64,000 bases of DNA from an uncultured Nitrososphaerales archaeon (GTDB lineage: Archaea > Thermoproteota > Nitrososphaeria > Nitrososphaerales > Nitrososphaeraceae). The position numbers were made by a program. This document shows, piece by piece, positions 36,001-45,000 of this stretch (positions within the stretch are counted from its first letter, which is position 1; every line of letters starts with the position of its first letter). The stretch is from contig CAVQMO010000010.1 in NCBI GenBank assembly GCA_963713605.1, positions 576,001 to 640,000 of the forward strand, in the 5' to 3' direction.

Positions 36001-39000
36001 AGTCAACCTCCATCACCACCTCCAAGTCAACCTCCATCACCACCTCCAAGTCAACCTCCTCCAACCGGCGGAGACGCGGGTGGCCTTGACAAATTTGGAA
36101 TAAAGAAGATCTATTCCTCTAAGCCGAACGGTGAGCAATGGATCATGAATATGCAAGACCCACAAAATGATCCTAGGTCAAAACCTCCCGAAATGACCAA
36201 GAATGCTGATGGTTCGTGGAGAATCACTAGTGGCCAAGTGAGATACGGGGTATATACTTCATCAGGATATCATCCAGATCAAGTTGTCAAAGATCATTCA
36301 GTTTTGGCAACAAGAGGATATATGCAATCTCCAAATGATTGGAAGAATATCGAGATGACAGGACAGGTCAAGTACAATTCAGGCGGTGACGATGAATGGA
36401 CATGGTACGCAAGAGGAGGAAGACACACGGGAAGCGGAAACCCGGAAGGCTGCGAGGGTGTAGCATACAAAGGTTCATTAGCATACACTGGTGGACAGGT
36501 GAGATGGGCCAAAGAACAGTGGCATGTAAGCTACGTTTACCAACCTTGGAAAGATTCACCTGCAGATGGTAACGGAAAATTTGTCGGGTTCAAAGTGGTC
36601 ATGTATAATATGCAATTGAATGGAAAAACGGTCGTAAAACTCGAAACATATGTTGACCCTAATAACAACAATCAGTGGCAGAAGGTGTATGATTTTATAG
36701 ATCAGGGAGGATGGGGAAATGAAGGAGGAGAATGTAACGGAGAGCCTGATCAGATCGTTACCTGGGGCGGTCCAGCGAGCATCATTTAGATGGGATGATG
36801 GGAATAGCATAGACATAAAGAACTTGAGTGTTAGGGAGATCGTTCCTCCGGTAAAGTAACGGTAGTAGTAATCAGAATATAATAATATTCGAAATGATGA
36901 AAAAGAAGCCAAGGAGGAACAGTTTTTTATTCATTGGATCAACGGGGGTTCTTGGAAGATACGGAATACATTAAATCAGAATCGCTAACCAAACGAAATC
37001 GCTAGCGTATAAGGTTCATACGTTTAACGTTCGTTCATAAAATTCTCTCAAAGATTAGAATCCTCTTGTTCTTGGATGTTACTGTAATATGCAAGAAAAG
37101 AAAAACAACTACACTTATCAATAAAGCATATCACTATCCGCCATAATCAAATTATATCTAGGTGTTTGATTTTGTTACAATATCTTGTTCGGCGGGAAGC
37201 ACCCTCTGATCTGCGGCCGCCCGAATGACTATCTCTTCATAATACCTAATTACAGTAATTTCCTTAATTTCAGGCACCTTCACCTTTTTGTGCTCAACCA
37301 TATCTATTAGCATCATTGGAAAGTTTGCACCCGCCAGTGTTGTAAAAATTGTTCCGCCACCCATTCTCGGATTAATTTCTACGAGCTTCACAATCCCATT
37401 CACATCCTCTTTCATTTGAATGCAACAAGGACCTCTGATCCCTATAAAATCGGCTATTTGCTTACATTCTTCTTCGATTTTCCTATTTTTCAAGATCCTT
37501 CCCTTTGTGGATATTCCTGCTTTAGTTTGGATTCTTATTCTAGGAACAGCCATCATTGCTCTCTTATCTAAATCAGATAAGACATCTATAGTATATTCCG
37601 TACCAGGAAGAAATTCCTGAAATATCAAATCTTTCATCTTGGAAGTGACATACCCTATATCATCACTGTTGTCTAGTCGCATAATATCTCTACTACCTTT
37701 TCCATATCTCGGTTTTGCCATGATAGGAAAAGCACCAATCTCGGTCGGATCTGTGGTAGTAAAAGGAAGGTCGAATTTGCCTTTTAGTCTCTCATACGTT
37801 AGCATCTTATCCTTACATGTTACAAGGCTATCCATGTCGCTGACCACAGGAAACGCTCCTCTTTTTATCAACTGTTCTTTAAATTCACTATATGGATAAA
37901 TATCAAATCCTGATGTAGGTAATAGTAAGTTAACTCCGTACTTCTCGACTATCTCATTTAGCCTATCTATAAAAGAATGATTGTCAGCCTCAGGTATCAC
38001 CTCGTTAACTTCACACATGAAAAAACCTGGGGACAGATAACTTGAATCAGTGGCTACTATTTTCCCCTGAAAGCCCCCCATTCTCAGCGATTTTATTGCA
38101 TTGATGCCCGCAGGAGCAGCTGCTCCAGGAACTAAAATCGTGGACACCTTTTTATTCGACAAATGGACAACCAGGGCTGTCTAAATGACATTCATTTGCT
38201 TCTTATAAAGATTTGGAGCGCTCGAAAGGCATTAATAAAAATCTAGCGAATGTAATTTGGATTGTTAAATATTAAGGAAGACTTTCACGTCCATACAAGT
38301 TATAACGATCATTCTGCCCCTGATCTGAATGTTGTATCAGCTGCTAAGTATGCTGAATCAATTGGCTTAAGGACGCTGGCATTCACAGAACATGTCAGGA
38401 GAGAATCGAATTGGATCGATAGCTATGTGAATGAAATTGAAACGAACAATACTAAACCCAATCTAAAATTAATCACAGGTTTTGAAGCAAAGATTCTTAG
38501 AGACGGATCGATTGACTGTCCTCCGAAGTATAGCGCAGATTACTTTGTTATTGCTAGTTTCCATACCATTTACGGTAACAAAGAAATTTGGATGAATGCC
38601 ATTAAAAATGCAATTCAGAATCCTGACGTTGATGTGATTGGACATTTGGCTCCAGAACCGACTTTTAGTTTGGATAAAGACGAATTAATAGAAATATGCC
38701 AGCTACTCAAAGACCATGGTAAAATAGTTGAATTAAATGCGAAATATAATAGACCCCCTATGGACTGGGTCCTCAAATTCAAAAAATACAATGTAGAGTT
38801 TCATCTAGGTAGCGATGCTCATTCATTGAACGAAATTGGAGAATTTAATAGAATTCTTAAATTAGTTGAGGCTGTTGGTGCTAACTCCTAGATAATCGTT
38901 ATTCAATGAGAAAAAGCTGTAGTGTTTAACTTGCAGAGGATGATGTCTATTCTCCATAAAGCGGCATACTAAATGACAAATCCTGGAAATTTATATAGTG

Positions 39001-42000: not shown

Positions 42001-45000
42001 AAATGTTGGCTCGGTCAAAGAAGGATTAGAAAATTCTAGTATCCCTGATTACTTCTAGCTTCAAATGCTTAGCATGATTCAAAAGCACCGGTGACCACTC
42101 AGATTGTACTAAAAAATTTGAATTATTACTGTGATAGTAGGTTCCATAAGGAATGTCTTATTCATTAAATAAGTCAGACCTACGAGACAGAAAATCTTCC
42201 CTAATCCTATCCATTTGAGATCAGGTGCTACTAATGCTGTCTTTGTGACTATTAATTACGGATGAGACGTAATCGATAGAACTAGTTCTTCCTGTCCTGC
42301 GACTAGGCTGTATGTTTGCAGTTTGTGATGCTCGTGATAATCTATATCTCTTGTATTCTTCATCTACTTCCATTGATGCCTTTAATATTCTGCTCCTCGT
42401 AGCAACAGATTTTGAAGATTGTAGAAACATTTTGGTATCTTTTGGCAGACAGTGTCCTCCTATGCCATCCCTGGGCTCGAGTATTTCTACATTCCATTTG
42501 GTATTTAGGGCTTCACGCAATTCTGGGAAGTTTATGCTATTAGCTTGACAGTAGAGGTAGATATCCTCTGCAAAGGCTATTTGAAGATATCTGTGTGCAT
42601 TTTCAGCTATCTTTGTTATTTCAGCAATTTCTACATCAGAAACAGGATGTAATGGTATTCCTAGATTAAGAGGAGTGTAATTGATGTCATTATTTTTGCC
42701 AGCTGAGGAATAGGAAGAAGAGAAGAAGAAGAAGAAGTAGAAGTAGAAGTAGAAGTAGAAGAAGTATTCATAGTTGTAGGGGAAGAAGGAGTAAAGGAAG
42801 AAGTAGTAATAGCATCGTCCATAGTCGAGGGAGTGATTTCGATGCTGGTATCGCCCATGAGGATGCTGTTATTGTTATTATCAATACCATGGCCATTACC
42901 AATACCATTACCATTGCCATTTGCCATTACCATTATTACCATTGCCAATATTGATTTTGTTGTTGTTGTTGCTGTTGCTGTTGTTTATGTCGTTGTTAAC
43001 ATTAATTTGGCCGTAGAACTGTACAGCTGCTTTAAGACAACAATCACACACTCCTCCAACTACACGCAACTGGTTAACTCCGTGTTCTTTTTCTTCTAAA
43101 GCATACCATCTATGAGGTATGTGTGCAACATGTAATCTATGGCTTAGCATCTCAAATACCTTCTTAGATGTTCCTCTTGGAATAGTGCTTTCTATTGAGA
43201 CAAGTGCACCATTTTTGGCTTCCTTTGCAATTTTCTCTTGTACAATAGAGAATAAACCATCTATCTGAGGCGTAAACATATCGTCTGGCATGTGTGTAGA
43301 GATGCAAATAATGTATACATCAAATTCACTGAAACTATCCGCTTTCTTTATAGCAGACTATCTTTTCTGCACGCTGCATTGCTTTTTGACTAATATCATA
43401 TCCGTATACATCAAATCCTCTCTCCTTCACATATTTGGCTACCGGAAGGCCAAGCTGGCCCAAACCTATTATAAGAACCTTGTCGGCTAAAGCATGAGTA
43501 TTCGCTCTTAGGTCAACTTCTGCGACCACCATATCAGACTACTCAACTGCCTATGATTATTAAAGAATTAAGAAACATTAGAAGTAAATTTAATCAGTGT
43601 CAAAACTTACCTTTTATTCATATATTTCAACGAAGCCACACGCTAGAATCAACGCCAATTTAGGTGAGAGGACACAATCCCAGGAAAATTTATACTGTCG
43701 GCAACTCTAAGAACTAGCTGCAGTTTGCTCAACCGATTGAGGGGTCAGATCGAACCTCTTTTGCTCAATATTGGAGAGGCGTTCTCCAAGATAAATCCCT
43801 CTCCTAACTTTTGGACGGGATTGAGTCTGATTACTTCTGTCATTGCGGCGGCAATTTATGGGAGTGCATCTGTGCTAGACCATCAATATTCTTATTATTT
43901 TTCTCTAGGAGGCGGAATATTCCTGATTATTTCAGGATTCTTTGACATGGTGGATGGGAGTGTTGCTCGCTTAACCAAAAAGACCTCCAAGAAGGGATCT
44001 TTCCTGGATTCAATGTATGATAAGATTTCAGAATCGATTGTTTATATAGGAATTGCAGTGGGAACCCTTGCTAACCCAATAACGTGCATGATCGCAATAT
44101 CACTCTCGCTTTTAGTAAGCTATGTTCGGGCGCGTTCAGAATCGCTTGGGGTTTCACTACAAGGGATTGGTATCGGTGAGAGAGCAGAAAGGCTTTTGTT
44201 ACTCGCCATTATTGGAATGCTGCCGCTATACGGATTTTCACAGTGGGCAATCATAATCGTATCGATAGTAGCCGGCTTTACATTAGTTCAGAGAGTATTG
44301 GAGGTAAACAAGCAACTATCACCGACGGGTTGAAGTAATTATCTTAATCTACCTGTACTCCTTCTTTCACTTTCAGATCTGACTTTTACAACTCCTCGAT
44401 GGACTGCGCAGGAGACACAATAGAATTTAACATCCGACGAAGGGGCGATATAAGCACCCTGGGCTTTTAACTCCTTTGCGAGAGTAGGTTCTACGAGGGT
44501 TACCCGACCAGTTACCTTCTTTGCCTTATCCCTAGGAACCATCGCCCCGCACTGACTACAATGCACCGTACCTGAACTTCCTTTTCCTCCCTTTGTTCTG
44601 CCCCTACTTGCCCTTTTCTTTGGCATCCAATAGTTGCTACAAATGAGCTATCCTTTAAATCTTATCCTACCCCAAGATCTAAAGATTTGAATATCCAGGC
44701 GAGAGTGTTTATCTGGTTTATAGGATCATTCATACAATTCACTAAAAATTCAATGAATGTATATATCGCATTCGGTTACCTGCAGAAATCCGTCTAGTTA
44801 CTCTACAAAAAATGAGATGGATTGTTTGTCTATCATGTAAATGCCTATTTTGTAAAAGTTTCAACCCAGTTGATACATTTGTGCTCGTTCAGATCAAGAC
44901 GACACTCCTGTTCCCTCGATGAAATCTGATTACGCGGGTCTTAAGGCTGCTTTTCCCTCACAAAATACTTAGCTCTGAGAATTAATTTTATATTCCACAT

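What a model noticed while it worked through the whole genome (the two positions that open the first line are those of the whole stretch)
37158..42058. Unrecognised BshC (bacillithiol synthase) homolog in a cluster with two ATP-grasp ligases and a PHP phosphatase
g04127, a protein without any family match here, belongs to a ~560-aa family of soil ammonia-oxidising archaea whose model folds like BshC, the last enzyme of bacillithiol synthesis; it sits between two PylC-type ATP-grasp ligases and a PHP phosphatase, and a BshB-like GlcNAc-malate deacetylase lies 37 kb away. I read the cluster as the pathway for a bacillithiol-like, cysteine-bearing low-molecular-weight thiol of these archaea, whose main redox buffer is not known. 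New would be such a thiol in ammonia oxidisers and partner ligases for BshC, whose own reaction has never been rebuilt in the test tube (this last point recalled, not from a call).
Evidence so far: g04127 C10:615030-616379(+), 449 aa called, its last ~60 residues out of frame through an assembly indel; Pfam: nothing at E<=0.1 but a chance DUF6011 hit. 863 relatives at E<=1e-10, typical length 555-563 aa, nearly all 'hypothetical'; 4 of the 120 listed carry a precomputed PF10079 (BshC) hit. AF2 model of the 89%-identical whole homolog P0558 with 17 rows: pLDDT 58.8, pTM 0.57. Foldseek PDB: B. subtilis BshC 4wbd E 1.7e-10 over 556 columns is the only hit at E<=0.001; next class I lysyl-tRNA synthetase E 2e-3. 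Invariant HQPNLF stretch (H103-F108) in 17 aligned members. Neighbours: g04125 and g04128 PylC-like_N/ATP-grasp_3, g04126 PHP. g04185 (C10:654805-655191) PIG-L, 34% identical to Bsh [...]
(Added by a program. Inside this text positions count along the whole contig: contig position 576,001 is position 1 of the stretch shown here. "Call 12" and the like, gene names such as g00115 and contig names such as C1 are that model's own, and its searches are not shown. The text may have been shortened before it was handed on; [...] marks where a part breaks off. The agent that wrote the report below was given it as the finding of a first reader that could run no searches.)

Follow-up and report, generated by a model that had tools for sequence, protein, structure and literature searches.

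The report
BshC-like ligase in archaeal sugar-polymer cluster
A soil ammonia-oxidising archaeon carries a true but very distant relative of the bacillithiol enzyme BshC, which always travels with a sugar deacetylase and amide-forming ligases and more likely decorates a surface amino-sugar polymer with amino acids than makes a new cellular thiol.

Summary
Window 39030-40716 (+) encodes a ~560-aa protein split by one extra C at 40220/40221. Contigs of three public runs lack that base, so the gene is probably intact. With a 111-sequence alignment the fold is now firm (pLDDT 95.7). It matches B. subtilis BshC over its whole length (Foldseek E 9.4e-19; VIA Z 32.4), and a sequence profile finds BshC as top PDB hit (E 2.8e-6). 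The cluster is conserved, and in relatives a PIG-L deacetylase is part of it.

The thiol reading is not favoured:
- The family occurs only in part of one archaeal family (37 of 78 genomes; 0 of 322 elsewhere in the class).
- It co-varies with one ATP-grasp ligase (50 of 52 against 0 of 29).
- It sits beside processive polysaccharide synthases (hyaluronan/NodC-like GT2, or a PelF equivalog).
- Distant relatives lie directly behind a PIG-L gene (62 of 63) inside surface-glycan islands.
- No bacilliredoxin genes were found in this genome.
- An EgtD/EgtB (ergothioneine-type) pair is widespread in ammonia oxidisers.

Best reading: a remove-the-acetyl, add-another-acyl module on a hexosamine of an envelope polymer. 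The substrates are inferred, not shown.

The parts
39030..40716 (+). BshC-like ligase gene (~560 aa when read through). It is split in this assembly by one extra C at 40220/40221 into 39030-40379 and the +1-frame continuation to 40716. The protein has a class-I-aaRS-like Rossmann core, a four-Cys zinc-ribbon-like insert and a C-terminal coiled coil.
   Evidence: frames and junction. (base absent in contigs of 3 runs). (pLDDT 95.7). (4wbd: E 9.4e-19, Z 32.4). (profile against PDB sequences: BshC E 2.8e-6). (three of the four Cys, C327, C351 and C354, invariant and C329 at least 90% conserved in 111 sequences).
40892..42058 (+). ATP-grasp ligase 2 (PylC-like_N / ATP-grasp_3 / ATPgrasp_Ter). It is the partner that co-varies with the BshC-like gene.
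   Evidence: Pfam. (NF009402, 296.7 bits against cut-off 218, a family of uncharacterised 'carbamoyl phosphate synthase-like' proteins). (immediately downstream in 54 of 64 loci with room). (present in 50 of 52 genomes with the BshC-like gene and 0 of 29 without).
38262..38891 (+). PHP-family phosphoesterase, directly upstream of the BshC-like gene. It belongs to a separable GT2 / ATP-grasp 1 / PHP module.
   Evidence: PF02811, E 2.2e-7. (immediately upstream in 42 of 71 loci with room). (kept next to ATP-grasp 1 and the GT2 in genomes that lack the BshC-like gene).
37158..38162 (-). ATP-grasp ligase 1, divergent from PHP.
   Evidence: ATPgrasp_Ter 1.5e-25, ATP-grasp_3 4.1e-18. (66 of 81 family genomes, including 17 of the 29 without the BshC-like gene). 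(best PDB sequence match 2pn1, an uncharacterised structural-genomics entry).
42221..43490 (-). Nucleotide-sugar dehydrogenase (UDP-glucose/GDP-mannose dehydrogenase family), broken into several pieces by frameshifts. It is a conserved neighbour downstream of ATP-grasp 2.
   Evidence: UDPG_MGDP_dh fragments. (tblastn pieces at C10:618344-619484). (the relative's best NCBIfam matches are NDP-sugar dehydrogenase and UDP-ManNAc dehydrogenase, below cut-off). (in 28 of 80 loci, many of which are cut short).
43725..44333 (+). CDP-alcohol phosphatidyltransferase (archaetidylinositol-phosphate-synthase-like). It is a context gene, and whether it belongs to the cluster is open.
   Evidence: PF01066. 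(the relative scores 156 bits for NF040950, cut-off 180). (in 6 of 80 loci).
34347..36789 (+). Probable single surface protein split by a frameshift (34347-36089 plus 35806-36789), with Ig-like, cadherin-like and F5/8-type-C (sugar-binding) domains. It flanks the cluster.
   Evidence: Big_9, F5_F8_type_C, Cadherin_5. (in L042 both parts lie in one 737-aa ORF). (a related F5/8-C/Ig protein lies inside the cluster of L032).
1033..3790 (-). Empty site of the alternative ('type A') island. The metallophosphoesterase (1033-1935) and the KaiC-like gene (2413-3790) are adjacent here. In other genomes they bracket a ~9-kb island that holds a second BshC-like gene, PIG-L, a PelF-type GT4, an epimerase, a polytopic membrane protein and an ATP-grasp.
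   Evidence: layout of L031. (tblastn of the L031 flanking genes onto the window). (no PelF, TPR or 551-aa membrane protein found in this genome).

Best explanation
The gene encodes a cytosolic, class-I-aminoacyl-tRNA-synthetase-like ligase of the BshC superfamily.

Core module. With a PIG-L deacetylase it forms a 'remove the acetyl, put on another acyl group' unit. PIG-L frees the amine of an N-acetylhexosamine. The BshC-like enzyme then activates a carboxylic acid, most likely an amino acid, with ATP and joins it to that amine.

Setting in these archaea. In soil ammonia oxidisers this pair, together with ATP-grasp ligase 2, is an accessory add-on to a polysaccharide-synthase system. That system is either a membrane-embedded processive GT2 (hyaluronan/NodC/PgaC-like) with ATP-grasp ligase 1 and a PHP phosphatase, or a PelF-type GT4 with an epimerase and a polytopic membrane protein. 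The likely product is an envelope or extracellular amino-sugar polymer (possibly with uronic acid from the neighbouring sugar dehydrogenase) that carries amide-linked amino acids.

What is shown: the fold, the homology, the gene linkage and the co-occurrence. What is inferred: every substrate, the ATP chemistry, the order of steps and where the product ends up.
For: Homology to BshC:
- The model has pLDDT 95.7 and pTM 0.94.
- 4wbd BshC matches at Foldseek E 9.4e-19, TM 0.62/0.64, and VIA Z 32.4 over 487 of 540 residues.
- The next match is class I LysRS (Z 24.9); other class I synthetases score about 12.
- A profile of 111 sequences finds BshC as the top PDB sequence (E 2.8e-6) in two collinear blocks.

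The deacetylase pairing is old:
- In 80 distant relatives (26-34% identical) a PIG-L gene lies directly upstream on the same strand in 62 of the 63 loci with room.
- In AOA loci PIG-L is directly upstream (12 of 71) or after ATP-grasp 2. It is present in 44 of 80 loci, many of which are truncated.

Glycan setting:
- All 8 long loci of distant relatives that I annotated are glycan islands. They hold GT2 and GT4 transferases, epimerases, DegT, GFO/IDH/MocA, UGDH and nucleotidyltransferases, with Wzx-type flippases in 2 of them.
- The type-A GT4 passes the PelF equivalog cut-off (156.8 bits against 100). Next to it lies a protein with about 10 transmembrane segments.
- The type-B GT2 has a QxxRW motif and 2 N-terminal plus 3-4 C-terminal membrane segments. 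Its best PDB sequence matches are hyaluronan synthase 1 (3.7e-13), chondroitin synthase and heparosan synthase.

Modules: in 81 family genomes the BshC-like gene is in 52 and ATP-grasp 2 in 50, all 50 within the 52 and none in the other 29. ATP-grasp 1 and PHP also occur in genomes without it (17 of 29 for ATP-grasp 1), where they stay next to the GT2.

Accessory character: patchy distribution, an empty island site in this window, and two single-contig genomes of genus g6 (G235, G244) without the family.

Precedent for an ATP-grasp plus a phosphatase amidating a uronic acid of a polysaccharide: C. jejuni Cj1438C and Cj1435 (PMC11800379, passages read).
Against: - No chemistry has been measured.
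- The deacetylase, the BshC-like protein (no membrane segment by my hydropathy scan) and, presumably, the ATP-grasps are cytosolic. Decoration would therefore have to happen on a nucleotide-, lipid- or nascent-chain-bound sugar before export.
- The type-B cluster has no exporter or flippase other than the GT2 itself.
- In the window's own genome the PIG-L gene lies 38 kb away and the GT2 on another contig, so linkage here is looser than in relatives.
- The best NCBIfam match of the PIG-L proteins is BshB1 (95-101 bits, cut-off 182.5).
- Glycosyltransferase, phosphatase, deacetylase and ligase is also exactly the logic of mycothiol synthesis.
- The glycan context of the distant relatives need not carry over to the AOA proteins.
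- The two earlier notes of this scan that reach the same reading are AI notes on sister genomes. They are not independent evidence.
Confidence: 0.5

Rival explanations
1. The cluster makes a soluble, bacillithiol- or mycothiol-like low-molecular-weight thiol. A glycosyltransferase makes a GlcNAc glycoside (the PHP phosphatase removes a phosphate, as in mycothiol synthesis). PIG-L deacetylates it, the BshC-like enzyme adds cysteine, and the ATP-grasp ligases add further residues.
For: - BshC is the only studied member of the superfamily, and it matches over its full length.
- The PIG-L proteins match BshB1 best.
- Transferase, phosphatase, deacetylase and ligase parallel MshA, MshA2, MshB and MshC (pathway as described in PMC7278568, passages read).
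- No GCS2-type glutamate-cysteine ligase was found in this genome.
Against: - The family is in 37 of 78 genomes of its own family and in 0 of 322 genomes elsewhere in the class sample. Two single-contig genomes lack it.
- No BrxA/B or BrxC gene was found (the genome is 87% complete).
- No BshA-type enzyme is linked. The linked GT4 scores 89 bits for BshA (cut-off 273.7) but passes the PelF cut-off. The other partner is a membrane-embedded processive GT2.
- Distant relatives lie in glycan islands, two of the eight annotated with flippases.
- An EgtD/EgtB pair is present here. EgtD is in 101 of 128 sampled genomes of the two ammonia-oxidiser families, so a different thiol is already plausible.
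- Cysteine specificity cannot be read from 12-13% identity.
Confidence: 0.17
2. The module edits a membrane glycolipid head group. A GlcNAc is put on a lipid such as archaetidylinositol or a polyprenyl phosphate and deacetylated by PIG-L, as in GPI-anchor synthesis. The amine is then acylated by the BshC-like enzyme.
For: - The founding PIG-L enzyme deacetylates GlcNAc-phosphatidylinositol (Pfam name).
- An archaetidylinositol-phosphate-synthase-like gene lies within 2 kb of the cluster in the window and in 6 of 80 loci.
- The GT2 is membrane-bound.
- A phosphatase would be needed after that synthase (recalled, from no call).
Against: - The synthase-like gene sits among housekeeping genes (S26e, NAD kinase, CTP synthase), so the linkage may be mere shared gene order.
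- The QxxRW motif and the hyaluronan/chondroitin/heparosan synthase matches point to a processive polymerase, not a single-sugar lipid transferase.
- The type-A island has PelF-type parts.
Confidence: 0.1
3. The product is a soluble aminoacyl- or peptidyl-hexosamine metabolite that is not a thiol, for instance a compatible solute, a metal chelator or a nitrogen store. The glycan genes would be neighbours only by chance of genome organisation.
For: - All three ligases and the deacetylase appear to be soluble enzymes (for the BshC-like protein).
- In the window's genus and in Nitrosopolaris-labelled loci no transferase lies within the fetched flanks.
- GT-plus-phosphatase pairs make glycoside solutes in other organisms (recalled). 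Glucosyl-3-phosphoglycerate synthase is a weak hit of the GT2 (E 4.1e-9).
Against: - A synthase-type transferase is linked in two independent architectures.
- Distant relatives lie in glycan islands.
- No transporter or regulator typical of solute or chelator clusters was seen.
Confidence: 0.1
4. In this genome the gene is a pseudogene and the cluster is decaying.
For: - The reading frame is broken at 40220/40221.
- The PIG-L gene and the sugar dehydrogenase are also broken.
- In genus g4, ATP-grasp 1 carries an in-frame stop in 5 of 7 genomes.
Against: - Essential genes in the same window are broken in the same way.
- Contigs of three runs that are 99% or more alike lack the extra base.
- All same-genus homologues are intact at 557-563 aa.
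Confidence: 0.04

Closest known systems
BshC (B. subtilis YllA, PDB 4WBD), the putative cysteine-adding enzyme of bacillithiol synthesis
   Same: - Full-length fold: a Rossmann-like core plus a C-terminal coiled coil (Z 32.4, 487 residues aligned).
- Collinear motif blocks. HQPNLF...KK...DHDF aligns with GGQQAGLL...K...EDHDL, and SPRA...GTGGSxxY aligns with SNNV...GPGEINYW.
- Partnership with a PIG-L deacetylase.
   Different: - Only 12-13% identity.
- The window protein gets no PF10079 hit, and its whole homologue scores 15.4 bits against a cut-off of 27.
- It has His-Gln-Pro-Asn where BshC has Gly-Gln-Gln-Ala.
- A four-Cys zinc-ribbon-like insert is conserved across 111 relatives (three Cys invariant, the fourth in at least 90%) and lies in a stretch that did not align to BshC.
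- It is linked to polysaccharide synthases and ATP-grasp ligases, not to BshA.
- It is archaeal and patchy in distribution.
MshB/MshC (mycothiol) and BshB/BshC (bacillithiol): the 'deacetylate, then ligate an amino acid' logic
   Same: A PIG-L deacetylase is followed by an ATP-dependent, class-I-synthetase-like ligase acting on the freed glucosamine amine. A phosphatase step is also present, as in mycothiol synthesis (PMC7278568, passages read).
   Different: - MshC matches only at the general class I level (Z 11.5).
- No BshA/MshA equivalog, no thiol-dependent partner genes and no MshD were found.
- The acceptor here is more likely a glycan.
Class I lysyl-tRNA synthetase (PDB 1IRX)
   Same: The catalytic Rossmann domain superposes closely (Z 24.9, 300 residues, rmsd 2.9 A). 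One distant relative has a weak tRNA-synt_1f hit.
   Different: No anticodon-binding domain. A coiled-coil tail and a zinc-ribbon insert are present instead. Nothing points to tRNA as a substrate.
Synthase-dependent amino-sugar polymers: hyaluronan synthase with UDP-glucose dehydrogenase, NodC/NodB/NodA, PgaC/PgaB and Pel (PelF, PelG, epimerase)
   Same: - A processive GT2 with QxxRW, or a PelF equivalog with a polytopic membrane protein and a GalE-like epimerase.
- A neighbouring sugar dehydrogenase.
- De-N-acetylation of the product.
- The Nod-factor order of synthase, deacetylase, then N-acylation is recalled, not taken from a call.
   Different: - The deacetylase is a cytosolic PIG-L enzyme, not a secreted CE4 enzyme.
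- Re-acylation is by a BshC-like ligase.
- Two ATP-grasp ligases and a PHP phosphatase are added.
- PelA, PelB, PelC and PelD were not looked for, and the membrane protein matches no family.
C. jejuni HS:2 capsule amidation: Cj1438 C-terminal ATP-grasp amidoligase plus Cj1435 phosphatase
   Same: An ATP-grasp ligase amidates the glucuronate carboxylate of a polysaccharide with a phosphorylated amine, and a phosphatase then removes the phosphate (PMC11800379, passages read). This is a working model for the unit of ATP-grasp 1, PHP and the sugar dehydrogenase.
   Different: This is an analogy only. Cj1438C is described as a TupA-like ATP-grasp and Cj1435 as a HAD phosphatase. Here the ligases are PylC-like/ATPgrasp_Ter and the phosphatase is PHP. 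No sequence comparison was made.

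Membership tests
BshC / Pfam PF10079 (Rossmann-like_BshC) | Score at or above the Pfam gathering cut-off (27 bits) | tested here: not met
   The window ORF has no hit at E<=0.1. The family search of the whole genome has no match at E<=10. The whole homologue P0015 scores 15.4 bits. Thirteen of the 22 rows of alignment A1 (20 homologues plus the window's two pieces) hit at E<=10, best 5.8e-6. Five of 24 distant relatives pass, at 28.6-43.3 bits.
BshC superfamily (fold level) | Full-length BshC architecture: Rossmann-like core plus C-terminal coiled coil | tested here: met
   Foldseek E 9.4e-19, TM 0.62/0.64 over 563 columns. VIA Z 32.4, rmsd 4.5 A, 487 residues aligned, model 9-558 against chain 5-539. 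Model pLDDT 95.7.
BshC superfamily (sequence level) | Significant profile-to-sequence match with collinear motif blocks | tested here: met
   The A3 profile against 177,635 PDB sequences puts 4wbd_A first at E 2.8e-6, in two collinear stretches. The shallower A1 profile had missed it.
Bacillithiol pathway (BshA, BshB, BshC) | A BshA-type GT4 (GlcNAc-malate synthase) as partner | tested here: not met
   The linked GT4 of the type-A island scores 89.3 bits for TIGR03999 BshA (cut-off 273.7) and passes the PelF cut-off instead. The other partner is a GT2. The genome was not searched with the BshA model.
Bacillithiol pathway (BshA, BshB, BshC) | A BshB-type deacetylase as partner | tested here: inconclusive
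   PIG-L genes are linked in relatives. Their best NCBIfam match is BshB1, at 94.9-100.7 bits against a cut-off of 182.5.
Bacillithiol pathway (BshA, BshB, BshC) | Bacillithiol-dependent partner proteins (BrxA/B PF06491, BrxC PF11009) in the genome | tested here: not met
   No match in the window's genome, while the B. subtilis control rings. The genome is 87% complete.
Bacillithiol pathway (BshA, BshB, BshC) | Cysteine as the ligated amino acid; a thiol product | not testable with these tools
   This needs an enzyme assay or thiol profiling.
Class I aminoacyl-tRNA-synthetase-like (HUP) ligases | Catalytic Rossmann domain of class I synthetases | tested here: met
   1irx_A Z 24.9 over 300 residues. 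GluRS, ArgRS, MetRS, CysRS and MshC score Z 11-13.
Pel-type exopolysaccharide system | PelF glycosyltransferase (NF038011 equivalog) | tested here: met
   This holds for the type-A island of relatives only: L031 GT4 scores 156.8 bits against a cut-off of 100, and PelF-like genes are in 10 of 80 AOA loci. It was not found in the window's genome with this query.
Pel-type exopolysaccharide system | PelG and the other Pel proteins | tested here: inconclusive
   The 551-aa neighbour has about 10 hydrophobic segments but no Pfam or NCBIfam match. PelA-E were not searched.
Processive GT2 synthases (hyaluronan, chitin, NodC, PgaC type) | QxxRW motif, GT-A domain and flanking membrane segments | tested here: met
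   Tested in the relatives' GT2: QQVRW/QQIRW motif and 2 plus 3-4 membrane segments. Matches are HAS1 8smm 3.7e-13, chondroitin synthase and heparosan synthase, and PgaC 1.1e-34, below cut-off. An orthologue 49% identical lies in this genome at C5:70396-71910. Its motif was not inspected.

The most novel reading that the evidence does not exclude
The processive GT2, the sugar dehydrogenase, the cytosolic deacetylase and three ribosome-independent ligases (the BshC-like enzyme plus two ATP-grasps) together build a peptide-substituted glycosaminoglycan. That would be a pseudomurein- or peptidoglycan-like wall polymer in soil ammonia-oxidising archaea.

In this reading the BshC-like enzyme is the first known aminoacyl-adenylate-forming ligase that loads amino acids onto glycan amines. 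Both ATP-grasps hit NCBI's 'putative pseudomurein biosynthesis ATP-grasp' model weakly, far below its cut-off of 500 bits (ATP-grasp 2 at E 5.2e-14, 52 bits; ATP-grasp 1 at E 2.7e-9, 36.5 bits).
Probability: 0.12. Interest if true: 0.9.

Novelty: new variant of a known kind. Interest (0 to 1): 0.6.

Why it matters
BshC is the one step of bacillithiol synthesis whose chemistry is still only proposed; the review I read calls the reaction 'proposed' (PMC7278568).

This is a large archaeal sister family: 517 clusters at 50% identity hit at E<=1e-3. It has a HIGH-like histidine, a conserved zinc-ribbon-like insert and an almost obligatory deacetylase partner. That offers a second, perhaps more tractable, entry to what this fold does.

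If the family aminoacylates glycans, it would name the enzyme for a kind of sugar decoration (amino acids on amino sugars) whose ligases are largely unknown (recalled). It would also bear on how soil ammonia oxidisers build their envelope or biofilm matrix.

The work also corrects a tempting over-reading. BshC homology plus a deacetylase does not by itself predict a thiol.

Tried and rejected
Searches that gave nothing:
- The shallow profile A1 against PDB sequences did not find BshC; the deeper A3 profile did.
- The PF10079 family search of the whole genome found nothing.
- NCBIfam has no model for the BshC-like protein.
- No Rfam family or tRNA lies in 30-50 kb.
- The notes of this scan have nothing by place or by sequence.

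A correction to my own reading: I first counted the metallophosphoesterase as a member of the type-A island, which would have put a phosphatase in both architectures. The window's empty site shows that it is a flanking gene, so I dropped that argument.

Links considered and set aside:
- N. viennensis N-glycan. It is nitrogen-rich, with 287.11-Da units (PMC12153357; abstract and sections 11, 13 and 14 read). Its units carry acetamido and carboxamide groups, not amino acids, and I could not tie the paper's strain to any genome handle here.
- WbqC. Two of 24 distant relatives hit PF08889 weakly (E 1e-4 and 8e-4), and NCBI names one Ferroglobus protein 'WbqC family'. The literature search gave no functional study. 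It stays a lead only.

Scans and literature:
- The genome-contig scan kept only Nitrososphaeraceae-type loci, so the context of the most distant group (500-545 aa; Ferroglobus and Altiarchaeota labels) stays unseen.
- Literature searches for prior claims: BshC + archaea, 14 papers; mycothiol + 'ammonia-oxidizing archaea', 4; bacillithiol + Nitrososphaera, 1; mycothiol + viennensis, 1. One badly framed search was wasted. None describes this family.

Weak or unfinished evidence:
- Contigs of the RNA run X15 cover parts of the gene. DNA carry-over cannot be excluded, so this is no proof of expression.
- The tree is a quick tree only; the careful search did not finish. My automatic A/B labels mislabelled some loci.

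Full report
**1. What is in the window**

- an ATP-grasp ligase, 37158-38162 (-)
- a PHP phosphoesterase, 38262-38891 (+)
- a 449-aa ORF, 39030-40379 (+)
- a second ATP-grasp ligase, 40892-42058 (+)

The 449-aa ORF follows its 555-563-aa homologues up to ...DLGLCC and then leaves them. The homologous text YASGTGGSMGYTM... continues in the +1 frame to 40716. The DNA shows one extra C in the CC at 40220/40221.

Contigs from three public runs of three studies (X1, X2, X7), 99% or more alike, all leave one letter out at 40220 at full depth. One of these may be the source sample.

The same window has at least ten other genes cut by frameshifts, including EF-1alpha, PolB, ThrRS, IleRS, TFIIB, CdvC-like and TrpB. 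I therefore read the break as an assembly indel and the gene as intact in nature. No RNA family and no tRNA lies in the region.

**2. Is it a BshC relative?**

Sequence level, shallow tests:
- A single-sequence Pfam scan gives nothing for the window ORF. The whole homologue P0015 scores 15.4 bits, against a cut-off of 27.
- Thirteen of the 22 rows of alignment A1 (20 homologues plus the window's two pieces) touch PF10079, best E 5.8e-6.

Deep profile search:
- A profile search of 1.84 billion representatives found 517 proteins at E<=1e-3 and 391 at E<=1e-10.
- Of 24 more distant ones that I scanned, 5 pass the PF10079 cut-off, at 28.6-43.3 bits.
- Labelled members come from archaea, including an Altiarchaeota MAG and Ferroglobus placidus. 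The language-model atlas points to the same archaeal clusters, part of which carry PF10079 or CC_BshC.

Structure:
- Foldseek puts B. subtilis BshC (4wbd) first at E 9.4e-19, TM 0.62/0.64.
- VIA-align gives Z 32.4 over 487 of 540 residues. Class I LysRS follows at Z 24.9, the other class I synthetases score about 12, and MshC scores 11.5.

Profile against PDB sequences: the same 111-sequence profile finds BshC as the top sequence (E 2.8e-6) in two collinear blocks.

Differences from BshC:
- Identity is only 12-13%.
- The family has HQPN where BshC has GQQA.
- A four-Cys, zinc-ribbon-like insert is conserved across all 111 sequences: three of the Cys are invariant and the fourth is kept in at least 90%.

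**3. Who has it**

In a sample of 400 other genomes of the class:
- The family is in 37 of 78 genomes of the window's own family.
- It is in 0 of 223 genomes of the second large family.
- It is in 0 of 99 genomes of 18 further families.
- Within the family it is patchy by genus, for example g4 0/8, g6 6/24 and g7 3/16.
- Two single-contig, 99%-complete genomes (G235, G244) lack it.

Source names and record titles call these organisms Nitrososphaeraceae, including Nitrosocosmicus, Nitrosopolaris and Nitrososphaera labels.

The tallies include the unpublished genome G365, and those include G365 and G436. Without them the figures are 36 of 77 and, for and 63 of 79. No conclusion changes.

**4. 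The neighbourhood: two architectures**

*Type B, the window's type.* The order is: [processive GT2], ATP-grasp 1 (divergent), PHP, BshC-like, ATP-grasp 2, [PIG-L, convergent], [sugar dehydrogenase].
- Twelve of the first 20 loci show the four-gene core unbroken.
- In 80 named loci, ATP-grasp 2 follows directly in 54 of 64 with room, and PHP precedes directly in 42 of 71.
- The roughly 214-aa gene after ATP-grasp 2 is a PIG-L deacetylase in all 8 loci where I checked that gene.
- In the window's genus that gene is missing from this spot. Its orthologue (58-62% identical) lies 38 kb downstream at C10:654805-655441, outside the window. The GT2 orthologue is on contig C5.

*Type A.* This is an island of about 9 kb holding two wHTH genes, BshC-like, PIG-L, a TPR-like protein, a GT4, a GalE-like epimerase, a 551-aa protein with about 10 membrane segments, and an ATP-grasp 2-type ligase.
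- The GT4 passes NCBI's PelF equivalog cut-off, 156.8 bits against 100.
- The island lies between a KaiC-like gene and a metallophosphoesterase. In the window these two are adjacent (1033-3790), an empty site.
- G184 carries both types.

A quick tree places the PelF-linked copies at the base of the AOA clade and the type-B copies as one nested clade with 97% SH-aLRT support. It is a quick tree only, with a midpoint root.

**5. Modules**

Across one sample of 81 family genomes:

| Gene | Genomes with it |
|---|---|
| BshC-like | 52 |
| ATP-grasp 2 | 50 |
| ATP-grasp 1 | 66 |
| PHP | 65 |

- All 50 genomes with ATP-grasp 2 are among the 52 with the BshC-like gene. None of the 29 without it has ATP-grasp 2.
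- ATP-grasp 1 is also in 17 of those 29. PHP too is kept in the genera that lack the BshC-like gene (g4 7/7, g7 7/7).
- In four genomes without the BshC-like gene (genera g4 and g7), the trio GT2, ATP-grasp 1 and PHP stays together.

So there is a base module (GT2, ATP-grasp 1, PHP) and an add-on (PIG-L, BshC-like, ATP-grasp 2). Related genomes are not independent, so these are descriptions, not statistics.

**6. What the partners are**

- The GT2 carries QQ(V/I)RW and 2 N-terminal plus 3-4 C-terminal membrane segments.
- Its best PDB sequence matches are hyaluronan synthase 1 (3.7e-13), chondroitin synthase, heparosan synthase and BcsA.
- Its best NCBIfam matches are PgaC (1.1e-34) and NodC, both below cut-off.
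- The dehydrogenase matches nucleotide-sugar and UDP-ManNAc dehydrogenases best.
- The ATP-grasps belong to an uncharacterised 'carbamoyl-phosphate-synthase-like' group. Their best structure match is the unstudied 2pn1.

**7. Distant relatives**

Eighty metagenome loci encode relatives 26-34% identical to the AOA proteins.
- A PIG-L gene lies directly upstream on the same strand in 62 of the 63 loci with room.
- None of the 80 has an ATP-grasp hit.
- All 8 long loci that I annotated (98 ORFs) are glycan islands. They hold several GT2 and GT4 genes, epimerases/dehydratases, DegT aminotransferase, GFO/IDH/MocA oxidoreductases, UGDH, nucleotidyltransferases, radical-SAM enzymes and methyltransferases, with Wzx-type flippases in 2.
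- Archaeal markers are present (HTH_45, DUF1616, and SepRS in one locus).

The old, conserved unit is therefore PIG-L plus the BshC-like ligase, and its habitat is surface-sugar biosynthesis.

**8. The thiol question**

- The genome (87% complete) shows no BrxC, BrxA/B or GCS2.
- It does carry an EgtD-type methyltransferase next to an FGE-sulfatase/EgtB-like gene, at C5:32050-33822.
- EgtD is in 12 of 14 and 89 of 114 sampled genomes of the two ammonia-oxidiser families, and in 0 of 72 genomes of the other families.
- An ergothioneine-type thiol is thus a better candidate for a general buffer than a product of a patchy island.

Published surveys I read:
- A review found BshA and BshC InterPro hits in archaea mainly in Asgard, and bacillithiol never detected in archaea (PMC7278568, passages read).
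- A preprint's BLAST survey found no archaeon with BshA, BshB and BshC (10.1101/2025.07.06.663066, passages read).
- Neither mentions this family.

**9. Mechanism I commit to (confidence about 0.5)**

PIG-L frees a hexosamine amine. The BshC-like enzyme activates an amino acid with ATP, by analogy with class I synthetases and MshC, and acylates that amine. ATP-grasp 2 adds or prepares a further residue.

The base module makes the polymer and amidates it. A working model for that part is the C. jejuni pair Cj1438C/Cj1435. There an ATP-grasp amidates glucuronate with a phosphorylated amine and a phosphatase then removes the phosphate (PMC11800379, passages read). This is analogy only.

All substrates are inferred. 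The cytosolic location of the editing enzymes means the sugar must be edited before export.

Two earlier notes of this scan on sister genomes (e1-7663998, e1-6929027) reach the same reading. I re-tested the synthase and linkage parts myself. I do not count those notes as independent support.

**10. Verdict**

- The BshC homology is confirmed and upgraded.
- The pathway reading is changed from 'new thiol' (about 0.17) to 'amino-acid decoration of an amino-sugar polymer'.
- This is an uncharacterised variant of a known enzyme kind. It has a clear experimental handle, and it bears on BshC's own unresolved chemistry.

Noticed in passing
window 87-1017, 2362-3835, 17774-19034, 19663-22880, 24141-25248, 26667-29115, 31249-32992, 42221-43490, 45076-46081, 57579-58791: Many genes are split into adjacent or overlapping ORFs: TFIIB, KaiC-like, CdvC-like MIT+AAA, IleRS (3 pieces), EF-1alpha, PolB, ThrRS (3 pieces), sugar dehydrogenase, NAD kinase and TrpB. 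The assembly seems to carry frequent single-base indels, so gene calls and the completeness figure for this genome are unreliable.
   Followed up: partly
G000:C5:32050-33822 (outside the window): An EgtD-type histidine methyltransferase (PF10017, two frameshifted pieces of 187 and 143 bits) lies next to an FGE-sulfatase/EgtB-like gene. PF10017 is in 12/14 and 89/114 sampled genomes of the two ammonia-oxidiser families and in 0/72 of the other families of the class. This looks like an ergothioneine-type pathway. Whether it is already published I could not check.
   Followed up: partly
window 1033-3790: This is the empty site of a ~9-kb island. The metallophosphoesterase and KaiC-like genes that bracket the PelF/PIG-L/BshC-like island in other genomes (e.g. 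L031) are adjacent here.
   Followed up: yes
window 34347-36789: A probable single secreted protein with Ig-like, cadherin-like and F5/8-type-C domains is split by a frameshift. A related protein lies inside the cluster in L032 and beside it in L042.
   Followed up: partly
G170, G228, G232, G286, G302 (genus g4), ATP-grasp 1 orthologues: In 5 of 7 sampled genomes of a genus that lacks the BshC-like gene, the ATP-grasp 1 match contains one in-frame stop codon. This could be decay of the base module or an alignment running past the gene's end. I did not inspect it.
   Followed up: no
L215:6419-8442 (G000:C10) and L216:6508-8713 (G000:C5): Each of the two PIG-L genes of this genome sits divergently beside a ~330-aa hexapeptide-repeat (left-handed beta-helix, GlmU-like) gene. 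This may be a second conserved pairing.
   Followed up: no
window 45452-46081: The C-terminal piece of the NAD kinase carries a MarR-type winged-helix region after the kinase C-domain. A second NAD kinase lies at 15065-15883.
   Followed up: no
P0262/P0270 (Ferroglobus placidus) and P0267: The most distant relatives (500-545 aa) hit Pfam WbqC-like (PF08889) weakly, and NCBI names one of them 'WbqC family protein'. This hints that the O-antigen-cluster family WbqC and BshC are related.
   Followed up: partly
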